Below, piece by piece: positions 8,391-62,066 of a DNA stretch of 64,000 nt (positions within the stretch are counted from its first letter, which is position 1; each line of letters opens with the position of its first letter). Under the pieces are notes generated by a model, which searched no databases, was not told the origin of the DNA, and saw only the letters and a program-made list of their open reading frames with translations. This DNA is from a virus (lineage: Duplodnaviria; Caudoviricetes), in IMG/VR virus record IMGVR_UViG_3300030095_006531, positions 1-64,000 of that record; one strand, 5' to 3'. Made by a program: the position numbers and the translations under genes.

Positions 8391-10298
8391 TCACCACTTA
8401 CGACAAGACCAATATCTAGCTTTTGTTTTTGGCCCAGGATTTTTGCAATTATGTCTGGCTCTGAAAGATTTACGACGTTTCGGGTTGGATTTTTTGATTC
8501 TCATATTGGGGTCGCCATAGTTTACTTTCTTAACGTTTCCGGTCTTAGGATCCTTAACAAAGACTTTAAATTTTTTAACATCACCGCGCATTGGTTTGTT
8601 GAGTTTAACCTTTCGACCGCGATATTCTGCCTCTTCCAAAACGTCATCCCAAAACTCCACATCCTCGGCGATAGTTCCGTCGTCATAAGTTGCATCGGTA
8701 ATGTGGTAATAAGTTTCTGTAATATTCTCCACTTCTTCCGCAATAATGTTGTTTAAAAAATCGTTTGTTAATCTCATATCAAACCCCTCACTTTTTTTAC
8801 CCCATTTTTTGCCCTTACCTCTTGTACCACAAGAAGCGGGTGTGGGGCGACACGCCGGGTATTTTGAGCGTTTTTCCCCTTTTTGTCTGCCACAGGATTT
8901 ACATTTTTTCTTACCTGTTTTCTTATCTTTACGACATGTGTTGCAATCTACCCACCCTTTGGACTTGCCTTTTCCACCTTGTCGCTGGAACCAACCATGA
9001 AGACCAGATTTTTTTTCCTTAGAGTAATCCGTTTTGGCAGCTTTCTTTTTCTCTTCAAGTTCTTGTTCAGTCTGTAGCAAGGCTTTCATTCCACGTTTAC
9101 GACTAGCAGCATTAGAATTTACAACCTCATCTCCATATGTGTCTCTCACATCATCAGTTTCTTTCACAAGTTTATCTATTTGGTCAACCTGTTTTTTGTG
9201 CAACTCTGAAGAGTCGGTTGACATTTGAGCAACTTTTGCATGTTTTTTAGCAGAAGACTTTAGTTGTGATTTGATCTTCTTGAGTGTCTCAACTTCTGAG
9301 TCTGTTAGGTCCAACCCTTCCTTGACACCTTTCCAAATTTTCCCTTGTCGGCACTTGACAACTGCACCGGAAGCATATGCTGATGGCCAAACATCGTATT
9401 TTCTTTTGGCAATACGAGTACATCTATCCCCAGCAGATTTCTTTTTCTTCTTCTTTTTCTTCTTTTTTTCATCAATCGACATCATAGCATCATACGAATC
9501 CCTTTTTAAATCAGCCAACTTAGTTAAGTAGCCCGTGTTTCTCAGTGTCTTAAAGGCCAAATTTTCTACAGAATATTCACCGTTTGTTTCAAGACCAGAC
9601 TTTCTCAGTTTTTTAAGCTTATCTCTCAAGGATATGGAGCGGTCGTAGGCGGCTTCGTATTCACCTTCTTCACTTAACTTAATGGCTTCATCAATTTGCG
9701 CCATCAATGAGTCGGCTTTTATCGCTACGCTGTCCTCATCAATATCTGATTCTGTTTTTTCCGGTTCTTTTTTCCACTGATCATTCATAACAGAATAAAC
9801 ACCACTTGATGTGTGTGGCTCCTTGTCGTCTTGAACATATACTTCAACCTCAAAACCTTTTATTTTGATGTCGTGCATAGAGTTCCACAATGATTTGACT
9901 GCGTTGAAGTATCCCCTCACCAATTCTTCATTCGAGTTTACTTCCTTAAAATCAATCAAGATGTGAAGATCAATATCGGATAAGTCTGTGTAGTTGTAAT
10001 TGGCCAAGGAGCCTGTGAATGTGATGTCTTTTATTTCGGCGTCAGATCCCAATGTGGGTTTGATAAACTTTTCAGCAATATCAATTAATCTGTCTCTTAT
10101 TTCACTTTTTAGTTTTTTGCTCTCATCCCACAGTTGTGGATTTAGCTCTTCTCTTGGCTTTAAGAGTGTGGGAATCTTTATAGCGACCTCCTCTTGTATG
10201 AGGTCGTTTAACCTAGTCATAAAAATATTTGTAGTTTTTGATCCGCCCACAACTTGCTCCAACTCTTCCTCACTCAGTTCGCCGTCTATCCTTGGCAT
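8391..10298 (-). CDS. Pol-beta-superfamily nucleotidyltransferase fused to basic Cys-rich modules
   Basis: TGSLANYNY..SDIDLH (GS..DxD) and EVYVQ; C-terminal K/R-rich modules; GGAG RBS. Confidence 0.75.
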   Translation of the reverse strand: MPRIDGELSEEELEQVVGGSKTTNIFMTRLNDLIQEEVAIKIPTLLKPREELNPQLWDESKKLKSEIRDRLIDIAEKFIKPTLGSDAEIKDITFTGSLANYNYTDLSDIDLHILIDFKEVNSNEELVRGYFNAVKSLWNSMHDIKIKGFEVEVYVQDDKEPHTSSGVYSVMNDQWKKEPEKTESDIDEDSVAIKADSLMAQIDEAIKLSEEGEYEAAYDRSISLRDKLKKLRKSGLETNGEYSVENLAFKTLRNTGYLTKLADLKRDSYDAMMSIDEKKKKKKKKKKSAGDRCTRIAKRKYDVWPSAYASGAVVKCRQGKIWKGVKEGLDLTDSEVETLKKIKSQLKSSAKKHAKVAQMSTDSSELHKKQVDQIDKLVKETDDVRDTYGDEVVNSNAASRKRGMKALLQTEQELEEKKKAAKTDYSKEKKSGLHGWFQRQGGKGKSKGWVDCNTCRKDKKTGKKKCKSCGRQKGEKRSKYPACRPTPASCGTRGKGKKWGKKSEGFDMRLTNDFLNNIIAEEVENITETYYHITDATYDDGTIAEDVEFWDDVLEEAEYRGRKVKLNKPMRGDVKKFKVFVKDPKTGNVKKVNYGDPNMRIKKSNPKRRKSFRARHNCKNPGPKTKARYWSCRKW

Positions 10299-10482
10299 AC
10301 TTGCTCCACTTATTAATTAGTTCACAAGTGTTATTAAGGTCTACACTTTTTGGCACTTCACATACAGGAAATAATCCATGTAAAATCAAGACCAGTCCTC
10401 GTATAAAAAGTTGTATACCCATTGCAGAAGCAAACTTAAGGTGGCTGAAATAAGTCTCATTATTCTCTCTCAGGTGTTTCAT
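10270..10482 (-). CDS. Small hypothetical protein
   Basis: ETYFSHLKFA...LILHGLFP; overlaps neighbours operon-style. Confidence 0.6.
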   Translation of the reverse strand: MKHLRENNETYFSHLKFASAMGIQLFIRGLVLILHGLFPVCEVPKSVDLNNTCELINKWSKYAKDRRRTE

Positions 10483-12020: not shown

Positions 12021-12414
12021 TTTATAAAGTTTTAATCCAAGAAGATAGTTCTTCTAATGTTCTTCTAAAGTTTCTAACCCACTCATCTTCGTCTGCTGCC
12101 ATCTCTTTACGATCTATGTATTCCATTTCAAGATCGGCATAATTGTTTTTAAAATAATCATCTGGATTGTTTAATGAGTTAAGAGTTTCTGAATCTTCTG
12201 GTTGAATTCCAATCTCCATGACATACTTCAAGTCACTTCCCTCACTTTCCAAATCATCTTCGAGCCATGACCAATCATCACCTGCTTCATCGACAATTTT
12301 ACGTGCTAAACGCGCAGCCAGATTTCCAGCCAACATATCGTCTGTATAGTCTTCACTTCTCCAGTCGCTACTTTCAGTTAAATACTTTTTCCATTGTTCC
12401 ATTAATAGTTTCAT
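11986..12414. repeat. 35-nt exact direct repeat at two gene starts (11986-12020, 12380-12414); 25-nt third copy at 11068-11092
   Basis: aaatactttttccattgttccattaatagtttcat is identical in both copies by direct comparison. Confidence 0.9.
12022..12414 (-). CDS. Acidic hypothetical protein with leader
   Basis: MKLLMEQWKKYLTE. Confidence 0.65.
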   Translation of the reverse strand: MKLLMEQWKKYLTESSDWRSEDYTDDMLAGNLAARLARKIVDEAGDDWSWLEDDLESEGSDLKYVMEIGIQPEDSETLNSLNNPDDYFKNNYADLEMEYIDRKEMAADEDEWVRNFRRTLEELSSWIKTL

Positions 12415-12737
12415 TAAAATGTCTCCTGTTCTCCATCTTCATAAGTTATAATTGTTTTGTTTGCTGGATGTGGTTGAATGTGAACCTTAATAAAATCATC
12501 CATTGAATCAAACACAGCAATACCACCGCGAGGAGGTGGATACAACCAGTGAATAACCGCTTGTCCTGTTGCTAATTTAACTCCCTCGATCACAACACCC
12601 TCGCCAGAAACACCTGTCTCATCTGTCTGCCTAAATACGGTAAATGAGCGAATTCCACGAGGTGCAAGTTTGGGTAAGGGTTGTGGCTTCAGTTCTTGTA
12701 ACTGCTCTAATTCTTTCTTTTTTGTCGGCAAAATCAA
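12414..12737 (-). CDS. Hypothetical phage protein
   Basis: FTVFRQTDETGVSGEGVVIEGV motif. Confidence 0.65.
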   Translation of the reverse strand: MILPTKKKELEQLQELKPQPLPKLAPRGIRSFTVFRQTDETGVSGEGVVIEGVKLATGQAVIHWLYPPPRGGIAVFDSMDDFIKVHIQPHPANKTIITYEDGEQETF

Positions 12738-13708
12738 CCTCCAGGAGCACCTGGTGGGGCAGAGCCGCGATAGTCAATCGGTGCCTTTTCCTTGAAAGGT
12801 CCACTATCTTGATTGCCTCCGTGCCTCAAAAGTCTTTTCATCTGCTTTATTAAGCGAGGTTTTAATTTTGTTTGGAAGTCTTCTTCGAGTGCTCCCAAAA
12901 ATGCAGACAACTTTTCACCTTCTGTTTCGATACTTGAATCCATATCATCGTCTGTTGCTATGATATGGAAAAAATTATCTCCGAATAATTCTCTATACGG
13001 CTCACGATTTTTACTAACCGCATTCCAAGATCGCTCTACTGATTTGGCATCCAGCGAGCGTCCGCCTCTTTCCAAACGATCTTGCTGGCGAGATAATGTA
13101 GTTTCAAGGGGAATATCAACAAAGATCATCCCAACATCGTACCCAAGCTCTTCCAGCTTATTCTTCTGGTTTCTAATGACCCCAAATTGACCACCAGTCC
13201 CGTCTACAATAAAGCTTTCACCAGCTTCTATTGAGGCTTGTTGTTTTTCTTTAGCGGCTTTTCGGGCTTTGTTAAACAATATAGCCATTTGGCTCATCTT
13301 GCTCCTGGTGAGTTCATAATCTTCCATTGTCTTTTCAAGATTATAGATGAAAGTTTTATCACCATTGGATTCTTGGCTGGCTGAAACATAAAGATCCTGA
13401 AGAACATCATGGCTCCAGCCATCTTCTGGCTCTTGCAATTGCAAAATTTGACTTAACAGTTCTTTTAGTTTTGTTCTGGCATTACTAAAATCATCTTTTA
13501 TTTTTGCTATGTTCTTTCCAAGACCTGACTGATCCAACATTGGTTCATAAAAATCATCGGGATTTATTATGTCCAACGTTTCCAACCCTAACCTATCAAT
13601 TACCGTAGATTTGCCTGCACCTGGTGCTCCTGCCATAAAAATAACTTTAGGTGCTACAGTCTCCTGTTCACCCAGATGCCGACGCCAGCTTTCCATTATG
13701 AGTTTCAT
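12734..13708 (-). CDS. Zeta-toxin-like P-loop kinase with leader
   Basis: FMAGAPGAGKST, INPDD, IVDGT, R..RGGR; MKLIMESWRRHLGE. Confidence 0.7.
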   Translation of the reverse strand: MKLIMESWRRHLGEQETVAPKVIFMAGAPGAGKSTVIDRLGLETLDIINPDDFYEPMLDQSGLGKNIAKIKDDFSNARTKLKELLSQILQLQEPEDGWSHDVLQDLYVSASQESNGDKTFIYNLEKTMEDYELTRSKMSQMAILFNKARKAAKEKQQASIEAGESFIVDGTGGQFGVIRNQKNKLEELGYDVGMIFVDIPLETTLSRQQDRLERGGRSLDAKSVERSWNAVSKNREPYRELFGDNFFHIIATDDDMDSSIETEGEKLSAFLGALEEDFQTKLKPRLIKQMKRLLRHGGNQDSGPFKEKAPIDYRGSAPPGAPGG

Positions 13709-16134: not shown

Positions 16135-17706
16135 TTATTCTTTCTCAACAATCGCATGATCAGTCAATAAAAGTGTTGAGGCGGCAGATGCGGCATTTTG
16201 CAAAGCACATCGAACCACCTTGAATGGGTCAATAATACCATATGTATACATGTTCACAATATCCCCAGAAGCGAGATCAAGTCCAGCATCTGGATTGGTG
16301 TGATTTTCGATTTTTTCTACATAAATATCCGGTGACAACCCAGCATTTGAAACCATCTTTTTGAAGGGCTCTCGGATTGCTTGTTTCACGATTTCTACTC
16401 CCAATTCTTGTTCTTTGTTTTCTGCTTCCACTGATAATGTTTTTGCGATACGCAACAAGCAAGAGGAGCCACCAGGAATAATCCCCTCTTTCTGAGCGGA
16501 ACTGACGGCTTCGAGTGCGTCTTCGACTCGATGCTTCTTTTCAATCATCTCCACTTCCGTCAACCCACCAACTTTAATAACCGCAATGGCTGATGCCAAA
16601 CGTGAAATGCGCTCTTGAATGCTATTGCACTTATCCAAATCCTCTTCGTTGATTAATTGCTGATTCAGGGCTTCTATTCTTTCCTCCACCCTCTCATCAT
16701 CCTGTTTTCCTCCAACAATAGTTGTAAATGTTTTATAGGATTCAACAGTTTGAGCGGAGCCGAAGTGTTCCAACCGGACTTTATTCAGGGGAGTGCCGCT
16801 TTCTCTGGAAATAAAAGTAGCACCAACCGACATGCTCAAGTCTGAAAGAATATTTCGGCGTTCTTCGCCGTAACGTGGAGCTTTAATGGCGGCAACTTTC
16901 ATAGTCCCTTTCATTGAATTCATGATCATTGCAGCCAGGGCTTGACCTGAAATATCTTCTGCTACAATTATAAATGCTCTACCATCACGGGCTGCAATTT
17001 CTAGTGCCGGAAGAATCTCATCAATTGTTGAAATGCTTCGATCTGTCACCAAAATCATACAGTCTTCATGGCGCATTGAGCCTCGGCGTTCGTCCGTAAC
17101 AAAAGCGTTTGCAAGAAGACCTGAATCAAATCGAAAACCCTCAGATAGTTCCAAAGAAGTTTCATTCGATTTTGCTTCTTGTATCGTAATTGCACCATCC
17201 TTGCCCACTTGATCAACCGCTGTCGCAATTAATTTTCCAATACCTTTGTCTCCATTGGCAGAGATAGTAGCGATTTGTTCAATCTCCTCCTTCGTAGAAA
17301 TAGGTTGAGATTTTTTAGCCAAGTTCATCACGATTTCTGAAATTGCCAAATCAATACCTCTTTTCAGTTCGACTGGACTTGCATTCGTGGCCAAATGTGT
17401 CTGGGATTTTTCCAAAATTGCTCTTGCCAAAACAGTAGAAGTTGTTGTGCCGTCACCAGCAGAAGAGTTGGTTGCTTCGCTTGCCTGCTTAATTACCTGA
17501 ACTCCTAAGTTTTCATATGGATCATCAAGTTCAAAGAACTTCGCCACAGTCACACCATCTTTAGTGATGACAGGTTTTGTGTTTGTTCCTTTAAGAATAA
17601 CATTTCTACCTCTTGGTCCTAAAGTTGCACCGACGGCATCAGCCAACTTATTGACTCCTAACATAATTTTTTCGTTTAGAGGTTTCCCAGATTGTATATG
17701 TTTCAT
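16135..17706 (-). CDS. groEL: Chaperonin GroEL
   Basis: TLGPRGRNV, ITKDGVTVA, AGDGTTT, GFRFDSG, APRYGE, VGG.TEVEM.EKK.R.EDA; no GGM tail. Confidence 0.97.
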   Translation of the reverse strand: MKHIQSGKPLNEKIMLGVNKLADAVGATLGPRGRNVILKGTNTKPVITKDGVTVAKFFELDDPYENLGVQVIKQASEATNSSAGDGTTTSTVLARAILEKSQTHLATNASPVELKRGIDLAISEIVMNLAKKSQPISTKEEIEQIATISANGDKGIGKLIATAVDQVGKDGAITIQEAKSNETSLELSEGFRFDSGLLANAFVTDERRGSMRHEDCMILVTDRSISTIDEILPALEIAARDGRAFIIVAEDISGQALAAMIMNSMKGTMKVAAIKAPRYGEERRNILSDLSMSVGATFISRESGTPLNKVRLEHFGSAQTVESYKTFTTIVGGKQDDERVEERIEALNQQLINEEDLDKCNSIQERISRLASAIAVIKVGGLTEVEMIEKKHRVEDALEAVSSAQKEGIIPGGSSCLLRIAKTLSVEAENKEQELGVEIVKQAIREPFKKMVSNAGLSPDIYVEKIENHTNPDAGLDLASGDIVNMYTYGIIDPFKVVRCALQNAASAASTLLLTDHAIVEKE

Positions 17707-17742
17707 ATGTTTTTAAATCCTATCACACTTTGATAATACTTT

Positions 17743-18306
17743 TTAGTAAATCGAAGCAGTTTTAATGTTCTCAACCAATTCAATTGTTTGAACTGCTTTA
17801 TTGTGGAACTTTTTTTGTAGTTTTTTACTGACGCTTCTTCGGATGAAGCCAGGGTTTCTTGGGTCTTTTAACGCTTGTGTGGGTATGATTAAAACTTCCC
17901 ACTTAGAAGTGTCGTGCCAATCGTTTGGTTCGTTCTCAGACCAACTTCCAGGCCGAACAAAAACTGCAACATCAAATTCATTATCTGAGTATGCAACATG
18001 ACCCGACTTTGAGGCTGCACCGTGATTCTTTTCGGAGTTTCGGCGAGTGTTTTCCATATGTATTGTTCGAGATCTTAATTTTACTTGCACCCTTTTCCCG
18101 TTTTTAGTTACGAGATCATATCCTCCTTGGTTGTTTTCTTTACCTCGATTTGGTCGCAGCTCACACTGAACTGAGGTGTTTTCATTGATCCAATCTCTTG
18201 CAAACAATTCAGCCGCAGGAGCGAACAATTTACCCAATTCATTTGGCTTGCACGTAACCAACATAGAGTTTAAGGTTTCATTGATGTATTGATGTGATGA
18301 CTTCAA
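17743..18306 (-). CDS. Putative PD-(D/E)XK restriction-like endonuclease
   Basis: AELF..GYDL..RVQVK; TTG start at 18306 behind AGGAG. Confidence 0.5.
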   Translation of the reverse strand: MKSSHQYINETLNSMLVTCKPNELGKLFAPAAELFARDWINENTSVQCELRPNRGKENNQGGYDLVTKNGKRVQVKLRSRTIHMENTRRNSEKNHGAASKSGHVAYSDNEFDVAVFVRPGSWSENEPNDWHDTSKWEVLIIPTQALKDPRNPGFIRRSVSKKLQKKFHNKAVQTIELVENIKTASIY

Positions 18307-18335
18307 ATGTTTTCTCCTATCACTTAAGATACTGA

Positions 18336-18364
18336 ATAGTAACAAAAAGGGTATGAGATGTCAA
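18336..18364 (-). promoter_or_regulatory. sigma70-like promoter
   Basis: TTGACA-17-TACTAT. Confidence 0.7.
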
Positions 18365-19143
18365 GAGATTTCTTCTAAAATTTTATCAATATCGAAGCCA
18401 GCGCAATCAATTTTTCTGGTGGTGATATGATAATGATTAACAACACCCTTATAAGTGCCAAGAGCTACAGATGGAACTTTGGTTTTGATAATTTTTTCAT
18501 TGCGAGTTGGAGTTTCTAAGGGAATACCATACGCTTGATTAAGGGTTTTCACCAATGCTTTAAAGGCTGAACGCTGTGCATCATAAAAACCTAAAAATGG
18601 TTCTAGAGTGTTTCCGTGTACTTTCACATCTTTCCAAGTCGGTCGTGGTCCAAAGCCGCGAGAACGATAAATGTCTTGATACTTGGGGTAATAAGCGTTT
18701 GATATTTCAACACCAACACTGGTATTATTAACCTTGCGATTACCTGCATGAAAGCCGATGTGGTTACAATCCATCAGTTGATATATTGTTCCATCATTGT
18801 CAATCAAAAAATGAACCGATAGTTTGCGTTTTTTTAACACATTATAGCAACTTTTTGACGACAAACATACATCCCAATGGGCAACGAACATCGTTGGAGT
18901 ACGTTCATTTTTTACAGTTTTATAGCAATTTTTAGGCAACGAAAGTCCTTCAGTATTTTCGTGAGTAACAACTTTGTCCCAATCAATTGAAACCTTGTTG
19001 CCACCGCATATAATATATTTCGTCGGCTCTTGCGATTCTTTCAAGATTTTGCTGGCTTCTTGTTCGGTTTCGTATCTTCTTATATCAGCGGGTTCAAGCT
19101 TTGCTGAGATCAAAAAATCTACTGCTTTGTTAAACCACTTCAT
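18361..19143 (-). CDS. N-acetylmuramoyl-L-alanine amidase (Amidase_2, probable endolysin)
   Basis: VAHWD, SVHFLIDNDGTIYQ, FHAG, N..SVGVEI, NHYH...KIDC. Confidence 0.88.
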   Translation of the reverse strand: MKWFNKAVDFLISAKLEPADIRRYETEQEASKILKESQEPTKYIICGGNKVSIDWDKVVTHENTEGLSLPKNCYKTVKNERTPTMFVAHWDVCLSSKSCYNVLKKRKLSVHFLIDNDGTIYQLMDCNHIGFHAGNRKVNNTSVGVEISNAYYPKYQDIYRSRGFGPRPTWKDVKVHGNTLEPFLGFYDAQRSAFKALVKTLNQAYGIPLETPTRNEKIIKTKVPSVALGTYKGVVNHYHITTRKIDCAGFDIDKILEEIS

Positions 19144-19786
19144 CTGCTATTCCCCATTTAACCGCAGTTTCAGCATCAAAATAGGTGTCTGTTTTTCTTC
19201 TAAAAATATTTTTTATTTGGCGCTCGGACAATGAAGTTTCAGCAGCAAGAGCTTTCGCATATTGATTTTGAAACCAGCGAACCTCTTTTATATCAACCTC
19301 CAACTCTTTTAAAGAGCCGAAGTAGCCACCAGATATGGAGTGCAACATTAGGCGGCAGTTTTTCCCCACCCTTCTTTTACCTTTTGTACCACCAGCCAAG
19401 AGCAAAACACCAGCGGACATGATTTTACCAATACCAAGACAGTTAATTTCTGCTTCTTTTCTAATATCCCTCATACAATCATAAAGAGCAAACATATCAG
19501 AAACAGAACCTCCCTCTGTTGAGATGATAAATTCTATGGGAAGGTGGCTGGTTTTAACCACTGCCTCCTCTTCCTCTTCACATTCCACAATTTCTTCGAC
19601 TGCACCGGAATCGTGTAAGGAGTATAGCCCAGCAATTGCATTTTTGCAACTTAGCTCACTTACTTCCCCGTATAGACTAACTATGCGTGGGATATAATCT
19701 GAACCAAACAATGAGGGCAACAGTAAAAGTTCACTTGTCTTTTCTTCTGTCTCTTCGTTTTGATCCAGGTGTTTCTTTTTCTTCAT
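19130..19786 (-). CDS. clpP: ClpP-like protease subunit
   Basis: ISTEGGSV, MSAG (Ser), LMLH (His), DTYF (Asp), AVKWGIADEV. Confidence 0.88.
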   Translation of the reverse strand: MKKKKHLDQNEETEEKTSELLLLPSLFGSDYIPRIVSLYGEVSELSCKNAIAGLYSLHDSGAVEEIVECEEEEEAVVKTSHLPIEFIISTEGGSVSDMFALYDCMRDIRKEAEINCLGIGKIMSAGVLLLAGGTKGKRRVGKNCRLMLHSISGGYFGSLKELEVDIKEVRWFQNQYAKALAAETSLSERQIKNIFRRKTDTYFDAETAVKWGIADEVV

Positions 19787-60317: not shown

Positions 60318-62066
60318 TTAGAGTAAGTCTTCTACGATTACGAGTCCGTACATATCTGGACGCACCATCTTCTTACCGTAACGGGTCATGACACCCTTAC
60401 GTGGTACGAAGTCTTCTGGTCCAAAAATGGTTGGAGTAACTTGTAATGGCACATAAGGTGCATATACGTAGCCACTTTCTAGGAAGCTATTGCCCTTACG
60501 ACCTACAAGTAGAACATTTCGTGGGAAATATGGATCAACATAGATGTCCCATTTCTTGCTCACTTGGCCAACCTTAACTGCACCGGCAGTTCCACGATTC
60601 TCATCGGCTGTTGTGTCAGCACGGAAACCACTAGTAAACTCAAGAACGTTTGCAACTTCTGGGCTAGTAACGATAAAGTTCGCCCCGCCGCGAAGTGTCT
60701 TTCTGTGAATTTGTGCAGAAACATCATTGACTGTCTCAAGAAGTGTCTCGTACCATTCAGAAACAGTACCTGTGAAATCCGGATACAATGTTTCGTTGGT
60801 AGATGAACCGCCTGGGGCAGCTGCTGTTCCGCTACGCGCTACAAACTTACCTGGTTTACGTGACCAGAAGAAAGTTCCTGCTTGTGCGCCAATAATCAAA
60901 TCTTCAAGAATTTCTTGATCGATTTCAAGTGCAATTGTTTCAGAAAGAATACCAGTCAACTCAACTTCAGCATCCAAGTTGTGGTATGCATTGATGTCTT
61001 GTTGCAGTTCTGGTGTCCATTTGGCCTTTAACTTCTTGGTTACAGCGGTGATTGATACACTGTCAACCTTGATGTCAATTTCTGGAATTTGGTTTGTATT
61101 TTCAAGTGCCCAGTCGGTTCGACCAACAATAGCACCTTTTGCAACACCAGAGGTGGTGAATGCATCTACAATTGAACCAGTTGCAATATCAACCAGAGGT
61201 ACAGAAGCGGTAATGTCACTATTTTTATTAGCAGCACCAGTCCACTCAAAGACAAAAAGAAGCTCAGTGCCGTCACGACCTCCACCAACAAAAGAGCCAC
61301 TGCTAAGTTGCGTTAGGCGTCGAACTTGTCGAATGTTAGTAAGACTACCAACAGAAGCATCATTTACTTCAACCGTGATTAAATCATCAAAATTGAGTGT
61401 TTTTTGAGCTGTTTCAAAGCTGGATCTAGCAATTGAGCCAATGCCGACAACACTACCTGAAAGATCAGGGTCATAACGAGTGATCGCATTAGCGTTTGCG
61501 GGAGTTAGGCTTGACCACGAGGCTGCATCTGTTGCAGACGCTGTACCCCAACCCAATAGTGTGGTTGTCAAAGATGCAAATGAAGCAGTTGGACTAGAAT
61601 AGCCATTATTAAGAGCGTAAAAGCTCTTCTCTGCATTAGCACCAGTTAGATCAACACCACCAGTGATTTGATTACCAACTGCACCACCGCCATAGACGGA
61701 ATTGCCTTTAGTATACTGCGCCTTGGTGTCTCCATAGGTAAAGTCTAGGAAGAAAATAAGGCCAGATGGCAAGCTCATTGGTTGAACTGACACTAGCTCA
61801 TTTGCGATTAGTCCACCAAATACTCGACGGACAATTGGAAATGCAACCGCAGCGAAGCCTTCAACATCACTACCTTGCATTGTAGATGCTTCACGAAGAA
61901 GCTCTTTTGCTTGGTTTTCAAGAAGTGCAGCCATACTATTACGACCGTGATCACTCTCTAAACCTTCTAGAAGACCAGTTTTTTCCCATTTGTTGAGAAC
62001 AGCTTGACCTTCTTTTTGGACATTGCGACTAACAATACCCTCAGTAAGTTTTTCGATAATACTCAT
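60318..62066 (-). CDS. Major capsid protein (T4 gp23-like)
   Basis: KWEKTGLL, VQPMSLPSGLIF, KKLKAKWTPEL.QD, EID.EI, YAPYVPL, PRKGVMTRY. Confidence 0.95.
   Translation of the reverse strand: MSIIEKLTEGIVSRNVQKEGQAVLNKWEKTGLLEGLESDHGRNSMAALLENQAKELLREASTMQGSDVEGFAAVAFPIVRRVFGGLIANELVSVQPMSLPSGLIFFLDFTYGDTKAQYTKGNSVYGGGAVGNQITGGVDLTGANAEKSFYALNNGYSSPTASFASLTTTLLGWGTASATDAASWSSLTPANANAITRYDPDLSGSVVGIGSIARSSFETAQKTLNFDDLITVEVNDASVGSLTNIRQVRRLTQLSSGSFVGGGRDGTELLFVFEWTGAANKNSDITASVPLVDIATGSIVDAFTTSGVAKGAIVGRTDWALENTNQIPEIDIKVDSVSITAVTKKLKAKWTPELQQDINAYHNLDAEVELTGILSETIALEIDQEILEDLIIGAQAGTFFWSRKPGKFVARSGTAAAPGGSSTNETLYPDFTGTVSEWYETLLETVNDVSAQIHRKTLRGGANFIVTSPEVANVLEFTSGFRADTTADENRGTAGAVKVGQVSKKWDIYVDPYFPRNVLLVGRKGNSFLESGYVYAPYVPLQVTPTIFGPEDFVPRKGVMTRYGKKMVRPDMYGLVIVEDLL

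What the first reader, a model, noticed from the sequence alone, without database searches (positions are those of the whole stretch)
10242..10298. Double-glycine (bacteriocin/RiPP-type) leader fused to a phage nucleotidyltransferase
Seen: MPRIDGELSEEELEQVVGG behind a GGAG RBS, in frame with the NTase. Known: ELSxEELxxVxGG is the leader cleaved and exported by C39-peptidase ABC transporters (class II bacteriocins, Nif11/NHLP RiPPs). No such transporter is in this window. Inference: either hijacking or decoying of a host peptide exporter/RiPP machinery, or in-frame fusion of a former small peptide gene (alternative start MTRL at 10220).
Basis: partly seen in the sequence, partly recalled or inferred. 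Interest (0 to 1): 0.7.

Follow-up and report, generated by a model that had tools for sequence, protein, structure and literature searches.

The report
Bacteriocin-type Gly-Gly leader on phage proteins
A group of uncultured marine T4-like phages keeps, once per genome, a short "cut after Gly-Gly and export" tag of the kind bacteria put on bacteriocins, and attaches it to interchangeable phage enzymes that otherwise look destined for the phage head; this has not been described before and its purpose is unknown.

Summary
ORF 8391-10298 (minus strand, 635 aa) starts with a 19-residue segment, behind a GGAG with a 5-nt spacer. That segment matches the double-glycine leader consensus and passes NCBIfam TIGR01847 (16.2 bits, cut-off 15.7).

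It is translated and under selection:
- Thirty-four homologue clusters, down to about 51% identity, keep it.
- L-12, L-7, V-4, G-2 and G-1 are invariant despite near-saturated synonymous change (pS 0.63, pN 0.16).
- Several homologues have no Met between GG and the enzyme domain, so the start at 10220 cannot serve them.

New findings:
- The leader is a portable module, found once per phage record.
- Its usual slot is just after a DUF6356 gene, and it always sits directly upstream of a capsid-targeting-like segment.
- The cargo behind it varies: nucleotidyltransferase, zeta-like kinase, basic Cys-rich modules, others, or only a short unconstrained tail.

No C39 peptidase was found in the three phage records searched. 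The records do encode a T4 gp21-type prohead protease.

My best reading (about 0.45) is that a host C39 peptidase/ABC exporter binds the leader and probably cuts it. Whether the phage thereby uses, decoys or blocks the exporter is untested.

Earlier scan notes report other Gly-Gly leaders or tags in phages on other DNA, but not this arrangement.

The parts
10304..10307 (-). GGAG Shine-Dalgarno-like motif, 5-nt spacer before the ATG at 10298
   Evidence: Relatives have GGAG, GGAA or weaker at the same place.
10242..10298 (-). Double-glycine-type leader, residues 1-19. L8, L13, V16, G18 and G19 correspond to positions -12, -7, -4, -2 and -1.
   Evidence: These residues are invariant in 27 aligned homologues and encoded by 3-5 different codons each. 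TIGR01847 scores 16.2 bits (cut-off 15.7).
10188..10241 (-). Segment after the GG, residues 20-37 (S-K-T-T-N-I-F-M-T-R-L-N-D-L-I-Q-E-E). It is a degenerate counterpart of the capsid-targeting-like motif S-K-D-M-K-x-L-F-E-N-W-R-x-x-x-K-E of relatives. It contains the alternative start M27 at 10218-10220 and ends in I-Q-E-E.
   Evidence: E36 invariant. Neighbouring genes start with M-K-L-L-M-E-Q-W-K-K-Y-L-x-E.
9468..10166 (-). Pol-beta-type nucleotidyltransferase domain plus helical domain, about residues 45-277
   Evidence: Pfam MTPAP-like_central 18.3 bits and NTP_transf_2 17.1 bits, both below cut-off; homologues in many phages; the confident part of the model gives weak fold matches to LinB, CD-NTases and ANT enzymes.
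8391..9467 (-). C-terminal Lys-run and basic Cys-rich modules with an internal leader-like segment, plus the stop codon. This part is a variable cargo tail.
   Evidence: In L120 these modules follow the leader directly, without the NTase domain.
10270..10482 (-). DUF6356 small hydrophobic-segment protein gene (70 aa). Its last 29 nt overlap the start of the leader.
   Evidence: PF19883, E 3e-10. The same overlap occurs in L083, L086, L100, L120 and L123.

Best explanation
Shown: the first 19 residues are a genuine, translated double-glycine-type leader under selection. A clade of marine 'far-T4' phages carries it once per record, usually in one slot of a gene array whose products begin with a capsid-targeting-like peptide. 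These phages have a gp23-type capsid protein, a gp21-type prohead protease and a bS21 gene. The leader sits directly upstream of such a targeting-like segment. The cargo behind it is interchangeable: NTase here, elsewhere a zeta-like kinase, basic Cys-rich modules or other proteins, and in some phages only a short unconstrained tail.

Inferred: the residues held invariant (-12, -7, -4, -2, -1) are, from established knowledge, those read by C39 peptidase domains of peptidase-containing ABC transporters. No such peptidase was found in the phage DNA searched. The leader is therefore most likely bound, and probably cut after G19, by a host C39 domain during infection.

Also inferred: the cargo is large, variable and dispensable. 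The point is therefore more likely to engage the host machine than to secrete the NTase. Engagement could mean processing that exposes the targeting-like N-terminus, or occupying or blocking the exporter. If the protein also enters proheads, the phage protease would remove leader and targeting segment together after E36/E37.
For: Translation and selection:
- 34 of the top 35 homologue clusters keep the leader.
- L8, L13, V16, G18 and G19 are invariant in 27 sequences.
- These residues are encoded by 3-5 different codons each; pS is 0.63 and pN 0.16.
- P0005, P0006, P0015, P0016 and P0018 have no Met between GG and the domain.

Likeness to real leaders:
- TIGR01847 scores above its cut-off for the window, and every weak NCBIfam hit is a GG-leader family.
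- The phage-only profile finds bona fide multi-leader precursors.

Portability and independence from cargo:
- P0122 (kinase), P0148 (basic modules), P0146, P0127 and P0128 carry the same leader plus S-K-D plus targeting-like segment.
- The leader stays intact in P0035 and in the window's own subclade, where the targeting-like part is degenerate.
- Stand-alone leader ORFs have tails that differ by a frameshift while the leader is intact.

One copy per record: a leader HMM over 2.58 million six-frame residues finds one copy per phage record and nothing else above -1.5 bits.

No phage C39.

A plausible host has the machine:
- The capsid protein is nearest to Flavobacterium, Rhodothermus and Microcystis phages.
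- The bS21 gene lies between the capsid and protease genes, as in phages predicted to infect Bacteroidetes (PMC9723584).
- Peptidase_C39 is present above its cut-off in 53 of 151 genomes of the phylum of a Saprospirales MAG, mostly in frames of about 730 aa.
Against: - No host is known, so no cognate peptidase or exporter has been identified.
- Position -15, hydrophobic in many long leaders, is D, E or G here.
- Relatives score below the TIGR01847 cut-off, at 11.9-13.5 bits.
- Native leader peptides next to C39 transporters in 20 sampled genomes of that phylum score 8 bits or less with the phage-leader HMM. The phage leader is therefore not a close copy of those substrates.
- Only about a third of the sampled genomes have a C39 domain.
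- The cargo (450-635 aa, probably folded) is far larger than usual substrates.
- The records searched for a phage C39 are 42%, 71% and 100% complete. The complete one is a relative that carries only a start-less leader relic, so a phage-encoded peptidase in the missing part is not excluded.
- Earlier scan notes (unchecked) report Gly-Gly-ended tags on virion proteins of other phages. Those would point to a phage-internal system.
Confidence: 0.45

Rival explanations
1. Phage-internal tag. The acidic helix plus Gly-Gly hinge acts inside phage assembly, with no C39 peptidase involved. It could mask or time the neighbouring capsid-targeting-like helix, or dock one protein at a special site in the prohead. 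The gp21-type protease then removes it together with the targeting segment.
For: - The leader always lies directly upstream of a targeting-like segment, inside an array of such genes.
- A gp21-type protease is encoded at G000:65340-65798.
- The capsid protein has an L-R-E site where T4 gp23 is cut.
- No C39 peptidase was found in the phage.
- The leader is acidic and the targeting-like segment basic, so a helical hairpin is conceivable.
- Unchecked scan notes describe Gly-Gly-ended tags on cargo proteins of other phages.
Against: - There is only one copy per record, which is not what a general packaging tag would show.
- The leader is fully conserved where the targeting-like part is degenerate or truncated (window, P0003-P0005, P0035), and in stand-alone ORFs that lack it.
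- The conserved positions, including S/T at -11 and acidic residues at -8/-9, match bacteriocin-type leaders in detail. They are not merely amphipathic.
- The structure model gives the first 44 residues pLDDT below 50 and no docking.
Confidence: 0.3
2. True secretion. The leader sends the NTase polyprotein, or the small basic Cys-rich peptides released from it, out of the infected cell through a host peptidase-containing ABC transporter.
For: - The sequence matches an export leader.
- The tails contain basic Cys-rich modules that resemble small secreted peptides in composition.
- In P0148 these modules follow the leader without the NTase.
Against: - Cargoes such as an NTase and a P-loop kinase need cytoplasmic nucleotides and have no evident role outside the cell.
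- The cargo is interchangeable and can be a meaningless tail.
- The conserved targeting-like segment and the protease point to the capsid, not the medium.
- A size of 450-635 aa is far above usual substrates (general knowledge).
Confidence: 0.1
3. No function. Translation really starts downstream (M27 at 10220), and the Gly-Gly segment is a chance match or a decaying relic of a captured peptide gene.
For: - Homology of the NTase to distant phages begins near residue 24.
- The 10298 start lies 29 nt inside the DUF6356 gene.
- A start-less relic of a leader exists in a related complete genome.
Against: - Conservation with pN/pS about 0.26 and invariant key residues.
- Homologues without any internal Met.
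- The leader is intact where DUF6356 is absent (L084, L121).
- The chance expectation is 0.04 per record.
Confidence: 0.03

Closest known systems
Double-glycine leaders of class II bacteriocins, microcins (ColV), peptide pheromones (ComC) and Nif11/NHLP-type RiPP precursors. These are cut by C39 peptidase domains of peptidase-containing ABC transporters (NCBIfam TIGR01847).
   Same: - N-terminal position and a length of 19 residues.
- The consensus L-S/T-x-x-E-L-x-x-V-x-G-G, with invariant -12, -7, -4, -2 and -1.
- A small residue (S or A) after the cut site.
- The HMM score is above its cut-off for the window.
- The leader is portable across unrelated cargoes, as in Nif11/NHLP families.
   Different: - It is encoded by a phage.
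- It is attached to large enzymes (291-635 aa), not to peptides.
- A capsid-targeting-like segment follows it.
- No transporter, peptidase, immunity or modification gene lies nearby.
- There is one copy per genome.
- There is no hydrophobic residue at -15.
- Cleavage has not been shown.
Bacteriophage T4 internal proteins (IPI, IPII, IPIII, Alt), which carry an N-terminal capsid targeting sequence removed by the gp21 prohead protease
   Same: - An array of unrelated, fast-swapping genes shares a short N-terminal peptide ending in (L/I)-x-E.
- The same record encodes a gp21-family protease (Peptidase_S77) and a gp23-type capsid protein.
- The post-GG segment of relatives fits the array's motif.
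   Different: - In T4 the targeting sequence is the extreme N-terminus. Here about 22 extra residues precede it.
- In the window's own protein the targeting-like segment is degenerate.
- Packaging and cleavage are inferred, not shown.
Phage NTase family without the leader (for example homologues in Synechococcus, Maribacter, Pelagibacter and Lak phages)
   Same: The same NTase plus helical domain at 34-56% identity over residues about 45-277.
   Different: Many of these proteins begin directly with M-K-x-I-F-E-N-W-R or an equivalent peptide. None has a Gly-Gly segment.

Membership tests
Double-glycine (bacteriocin-type) leader, TIGR01847 | Family HMM score at or above the curated cut-off | tested here: met
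   the window scores 16.2 bits against a cut-off of 15.7, with residues 7-19 aligned to profile positions 3-15 of 15. Five relatives score 11.9-13.5 bits or are not listed, all below the cut-off. The criterion is therefore met for the window only.
Double-glycine (bacteriocin-type) leader, TIGR01847 | N-terminal segment of 15-30 residues ending in Gly-Gly, with hydrophobic residues at -4, -7 and -12 | tested here: met
   L8, L13, V16, G18 and G19 are invariant in 27 homologues.
Double-glycine (bacteriocin-type) leader, TIGR01847 | Hydrophobic residue at -15 (typical of ComC-type and longer leaders; absent from short leaders such as ColV, from general knowledge) | tested here: not met
   position -15 is D, E or G in all homologues.
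Double-glycine (bacteriocin-type) leader, TIGR01847 | Cognate C39 peptidase / ABC transporter encoded nearby | tested here: not met
   no PF03412 or PF13529 match in G000 (42% complete), G001 (71%) or G002 (100%). A host-encoded partner could not be examined because the host is unknown.
Double-glycine (bacteriocin-type) leader, TIGR01847 | Cleavage after Gly-Gly, with or without export | not testable with these tools
   This needs biochemistry or proteomics. The complex predictor was closed.
T4-type capsid-targeted internal proteins | Short N-terminal peptide shared with unrelated neighbouring genes and ending in (L/I)-x-E | tested here: inconclusive
   relatives have S-K-D-M-K-x-L-F-E-N-W-R-x-x-x-K-E after the GG. 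The window's own segment (N-I-F-M-T-R-L-N-D-L-I-Q-E-E) is degenerate, and it is not at the N-terminus.
T4-type capsid-targeted internal proteins | gp21-family prohead protease and gp23-type capsid in the same genome | tested here: met
   Peptidase_S77 at 108.7 bits, G000:65340-65798. Gp23 at E 3.6e-73, window 60318-62066.
T4-type capsid-targeted internal proteins | Presence in virions and removal of the targeting peptide | not testable with these tools
   The phage is uncultured and no proteome is available.
Pol-beta superfamily nucleotidyltransferase | G-S ... D-x-D catalytic motif and NTase fold | tested here: inconclusive
   The motif G-S-L-A-N-Y-N-Y...S-D-I-D-L-H is invariant. Pfam hits are below cut-off: 18.3 vs 27 bits and 17.1 vs 21 bits. 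Fold matches to LinB, CdnE and ANT(6) are weak, with E about 0.014.

The most novel reading that the evidence does not exclude
The leader itself is the active part. In this reading the phage uses a counterfeit export signal, fused to bulky or arbitrary cargo, to occupy or jam the host's peptidase-containing ABC exporter during infection, for example to silence export of bacteriocins, signals or defence peptides. Alternatively, the peptide between the Gly-Gly cut and the prohead-protease cut is released as a phage-made signal. Either would be a new class of phage-host interaction built on RiPP/bacteriocin leader mimicry.
Probability: 0.2. Interest if true: 0.85.

Novelty: new variant of a known kind. 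Interest (0 to 1): 0.62.

Why it matters
Double-glycine leaders are known as address labels on small bacterial peptides. In these phages one is conserved and single-copy, sits on interchangeable large phage enzymes, and stands next to a capsid-targeting-like peptide, with no transporter of the phage's own.

If a host C39 domain reads it, this would be the first case of a phage exploiting or sabotaging the bacteriocin/RiPP export machinery. It would also connect two fields, phage internal proteins and peptide export. If a host C39 domain does not read it, the case shows a striking convergence that would caution genome miners who call RiPP precursors from leader motifs.

Both outcomes can be tested with a simple cleavage assay. 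Three literature searches for phage-encoded double-glycine leaders or phage links to peptidase-containing ABC transporters found no description of such a thing.

Tried and rejected
- Phage-encoded C39: no match to PF03412 or PF13529 in G000, G001 or G002. PF03412 also had no match in G003 and G004.
- Candidate phage partner by gene presence or absence (genes shared by G000 and G001, absent from leaderless G002). G002 is too diverged; dozens of unknowns appeared and no peptidase.
- Conserved upstream word GAACTAATTA as a repeated promoter: not enriched in the window, 12 matches against 7.7 expected.
- Host from genome bins: NTase homologues turned up only in WOR-3, Saprospirales, Cellvibrionaceae and an unnamed MAG, which is not informative. 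P0035 lies in a Flavobacteriales MAG, which is weak evidence.
- Do native leaders next to C39 transporters in 20 genomes of the Saprospirales MAG's phylum resemble the phage leader? They share the general pattern only and score 8 bits or less with the phage-leader HMM, so this is not decisive.
- Short-protein search with residues 1-40: only two fragments of the same gene.
- PDB sequence search with the family profile: no meaningful match.
- DUF6356 as an obligatory partner: rejected. It is absent upstream in L084/L085 and L121/L122, and it occurs without any leader in G002.
- Structure model: the first 44 residues have low confidence, so nothing can be read from it about the leader.

Full report
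**1. The observation**

On the minus strand, ORF 8391-10298 (635 aa) begins M-P-R-I-D-G-E-L-S-E-E-E-L-E-Q-V-V-G-G at 10298-10242. GGAG lies at 10304-10307, five bases upstream of the ATG. Counted back from the Gly-Gly, L8, S9, E12, L13, V16, G18 and G19 fall at -12, -11, -8, -7, -4, -2 and -1. That is the full L-S-x-x-E-L-x-x-V-x-G-G consensus.

The strict pattern occurs once in the six-frame translation of the whole 76,456-base virus record, against 0.04 expected from shuffles. The first 60 residues hit nine NCBIfam models. All nine are bacteriocin or RiPP leader families, and each alignment ends at or within a few residues of the GG. TIGR01847 scores 16.2 bits against a cut-off of 15.7.

The start lies 29 nt inside the upstream gene, a 70-aa DUF6356 protein.

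**2. The leader is translated and under selection**

Of the 35 best homologue clusters, 34 keep the segment, down to about 51% identity. The exception is P0031, a different N-terminal fusion.

In an alignment of 27 sequences, L8, L13, V16, G18 and G19 are invariant, and M1, E7, E11 and E14 nearly so. In nine loci with DNA available, these invariant residues are written with 3-5 different codons each. Over the 15 leader codons pS is 0.63 and pN is 0.16.

P0005, P0006, P0015, P0016 and P0018 have no Met between the GG and the enzyme domain, so the downstream start proposed as the refuting case cannot serve them.

The leader is also intact where DUF6356 is absent upstream (L084/L085 and L121/L122). 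Dual coding therefore does not explain the conservation, and only codons 1-9 lie in the overlap in any case.

**3. What lies behind the leader**

In most relatives the GG is followed at once by S-K-D-M-K-x-L-F-E-N-W-R-x-x-x-K-E. This is the peptide with which many neighbouring genes of the window begin (M-K-L-L-M-E-Q-W-K-K-Y-L-x-E and the like). More distant NTase homologues also start directly with it (P0039, P0048, P0054).

Several facts fit a T4-style capsid-targeting sequence removed after (L/I)-x-E:
- The record encodes a gp23-type major capsid protein.
- It encodes a gp21-family prohead protease at G000:65340-65798.
- The capsid protein has an L-R-E-A site where T4 gp23 is cut.

That reading is another first-stage note (e1-5893448). 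It remains an inference.

In the window's own protein and its nearest relatives the segment is degenerate (N-I-F-M-T-R-L-N-D-L-I-Q-E-E), while the leader is untouched.

**4. The leader is a portable, single-copy module**

A profile of 42 N-terminal residues from seven phage loci was run against 1.84 billion representative proteins. It returned the same leader plus S-K-D plus targeting-like N-terminus on other cargoes:
- a zeta/AAA_33-type kinase (P0122);
- the basic Cys-rich modules without the NTase (P0148);
- a 232-aa unknown protein (P0146);
- two proteins with a shared C-terminal motif, one apparently membrane-spanning (P0127, P0128);
- a small protein (P0150).

P0027 and P0033 carry the leader, a first targeting-like segment, a 100-aa insert, a second targeting-like segment and then the NTase.

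Gene contexts place most of these in one syntenic slot: after the Acb5-family gene and usually after DUF6356, with the same 29-32-nt overlap. This slot lies within the GroEL ... HSP20 ... kinase ... 782-aa-protein neighbourhood.

A 15-residue leader HMM was searched over 2.58 million six-frame residues, covering three whole records and about 90 loci. It finds exactly one leader per phage record and nothing else above -1.5 bits.

**5. Stand-alone forms**

Two clusters, P0144 (47 aa, on five contigs) and P0149 (38 aa, locus L123), are short ORFs in the same slot after DUF6356. Each has an intact leader and a short tail, and the next gene starts afresh with its own M-K...Y-I-F-E-N-F-R-K-N-L-K-E. 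The two tails are related by a frameshift, because frame +1 of L123 reads P0144's tail. The tail is therefore unconstrained while the leader is kept. This suggests, from only two cases, that the leader matters on its own.

The complete but more distant genome G002 has an NTase without the leader. It holds one significant leader-like relic (G-Q-L-T-E-E-Q-L-E-H-V-V-G-G-S; 22.4 bits, E 3e-4) with no start codon, directly after a tRNA-Ile gene.

**6. What could read the leader**

No Peptidase_C39 or C39_2 domain was found in G000 (42% complete), G001 (71%) or G002 (100%); both positive-control searches worked. A phage peptidase in unsampled DNA cannot be excluded.

The host is unknown, but several clues point to Bacteroidota:
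- The capsid protein is closest to Flavobacterium phage immuto (45%), Rhodothermus phage RM378 (42%) and Microcystis phage Mel-JY01 (36% over 98% of the length).
- The bS21 gene lies between the capsid and protease genes. This matches the bS21 phages that Chen et al. predict to infect Bacteroidetes (PMC9723584).
- One homologue sits in a Flavobacteriales MAG.

In a sample of 151 genomes from the phylum of a Saprospirales MAG, 53 carry a C39 domain above its cut-off, mostly in transporter-sized frames of about 730 aa. Native leaders next to 20 such transporters share the general pattern but score 8 bits or less with the phage-leader HMM. The phage leader is thus not a copy of those particular substrates.

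**7. Mechanism**

Shown:
- The leader-type sequence is genuine and conserved.
- It is portable across cargoes and occurs once per record.
- It always lies next to a targeting-like segment.
- The records searched lack a phage C39 domain and encode a gp21-type protease.

Inferred:
- The invariant positions are those that C39 peptidase domains read in ComC-, ColV- and LahT-type substrates (established knowledge, not tested here). The most economical reading is that a host C39 domain binds the leader and probably cuts after G19.
- The cargo is large, varied and even dispensable. I therefore favour engagement of the host machine over secretion of the NTase. Engagement could mean processing that frees the targeting-like N-terminus, or occupation of the exporter.

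I put 0.45 on host-C39 recognition, 0.30 on a purely phage-internal assembly or masking role, 0.10 on true secretion, and 0.03 on no function. The remainder is unassigned.

The main arguments against the phage-internal rival are the single copy per record and the conservation of the leader where the targeting-like part has decayed or is missing.

**8. Comparison and novelty**

The segment meets the sequence criteria of a double-glycine leader; the family HMM cut-off is met for the window only. It fails two contextual criteria, a nearby transporter and a hydrophobic residue at -15. Cleavage could not be tested. It therefore works like such a leader on paper, but membership in the functional sense is open.

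Three literature searches for phage-encoded double-glycine leaders or phage links to peptidase-containing ABC transporters found no description of a double-glycine leader on phage proteins. Earlier scan notes mention a phage-borne Gly-Gly-leader peptide and Gly-Gly-ended tags on virion proteins of other phages on other DNA. These notes are unchecked and the motifs differ.

I rate this a new variant of a known kind, with interest 0.62.

Noticed in passing
L076:16671-16760 (= G002, a complete 193,778-b related phage): A start-less leader-like relic (G-Q-L-T-E-E-Q-L-E-H-V-V-G-G-S, followed by 18 more codons) lies directly after a tRNA-Ile gene. It overlaps the ribosome-binding site of the next gene. 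It scores 22.4 bits (E 3e-4) with the phage-leader HMM. This genome's NTase has no leader.
   Followed up: partly
L123:621-737, and protein P0144 (five contigs, no DNA held): Stand-alone 38- and 47-aa ORFs have an intact Gly-Gly leader and tails that differ by a frameshift. They sit in the same slot after DUF6356, and the next gene restarts with its own targeting-like peptide.
   Followed up: partly
Proteins P0027 and P0033: NTase homologues with the leader, a first targeting-like segment, a roughly 100-aa inserted module, a second targeting-like segment and then the NTase. This layout looks like a polyprotein.
   Followed up: no
window 10299-10335; L084:9966-10000: About 35 nt upstream of the leader start (…C-G-A-A-C-T-A-A-T-T-A-A-T-A-A-G-T-G-G-A…) are conserved even in L084, where the DUF6356 gene that normally contains them has been deleted. 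This may be an expression signal. The core word is not enriched elsewhere in the window.
   Followed up: partly
window 10270-10482; L103:1474-1680: In leader-bearing phages DUF6356 matches only positions 5-44 of the 64-position Pfam model and has its own conserved C-terminal tail (…C-E-L-I-N-K-W…). In the leaderless G002 it matches positions 4-60. The family also rings in Caulobacter vibrioides.
   Followed up: partly
window 12414-12737 (minus): This is the syntenic counterpart of genes that carry a precomputed Pfam Acb5 (PF26761) hit in relatives. It lies just downstream of the zeta/AAA_33-like kinase (12734-13708). The Pfam copy used here gave no hit. A relative (L082) also has a 2H-SAK gene in the array.
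   Followed up: partly
G000:64697-64840 and 65340-65798 (same record, beyond the window's end): A bS21 ribosomal protein gene lies between the capsid/scaffold genes and a gp21-type prohead protease. This arrangement has been described for bS21 phages predicted to infect Bacteroidetes.
   Followed up: partly
window 16135-19786 (minus): A ClpP-family protease (19130-19786; Pfam E 6e-28) is present. By synteny with relatives, an Amidase_2 gene and a Cpn60/GroEL gene sit next to it. This gives the phage a second protease besides the prohead protease.
   Followed up: no
Protein P0131 (cyanobacterial MAG; 481 aa); also P0135 and P0139-P0143: The phage-leader profile recovered bacterial precursors with up to seven tandem leader-plus-core repeats (…I-E-L-S-E-E-D-L-E-A-I-V-G-G…C-x-x-x-x-C-G-x-N-H-N-E-T…). 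These appear to be multi-core RiPP-like proteins.
   Followed up: no
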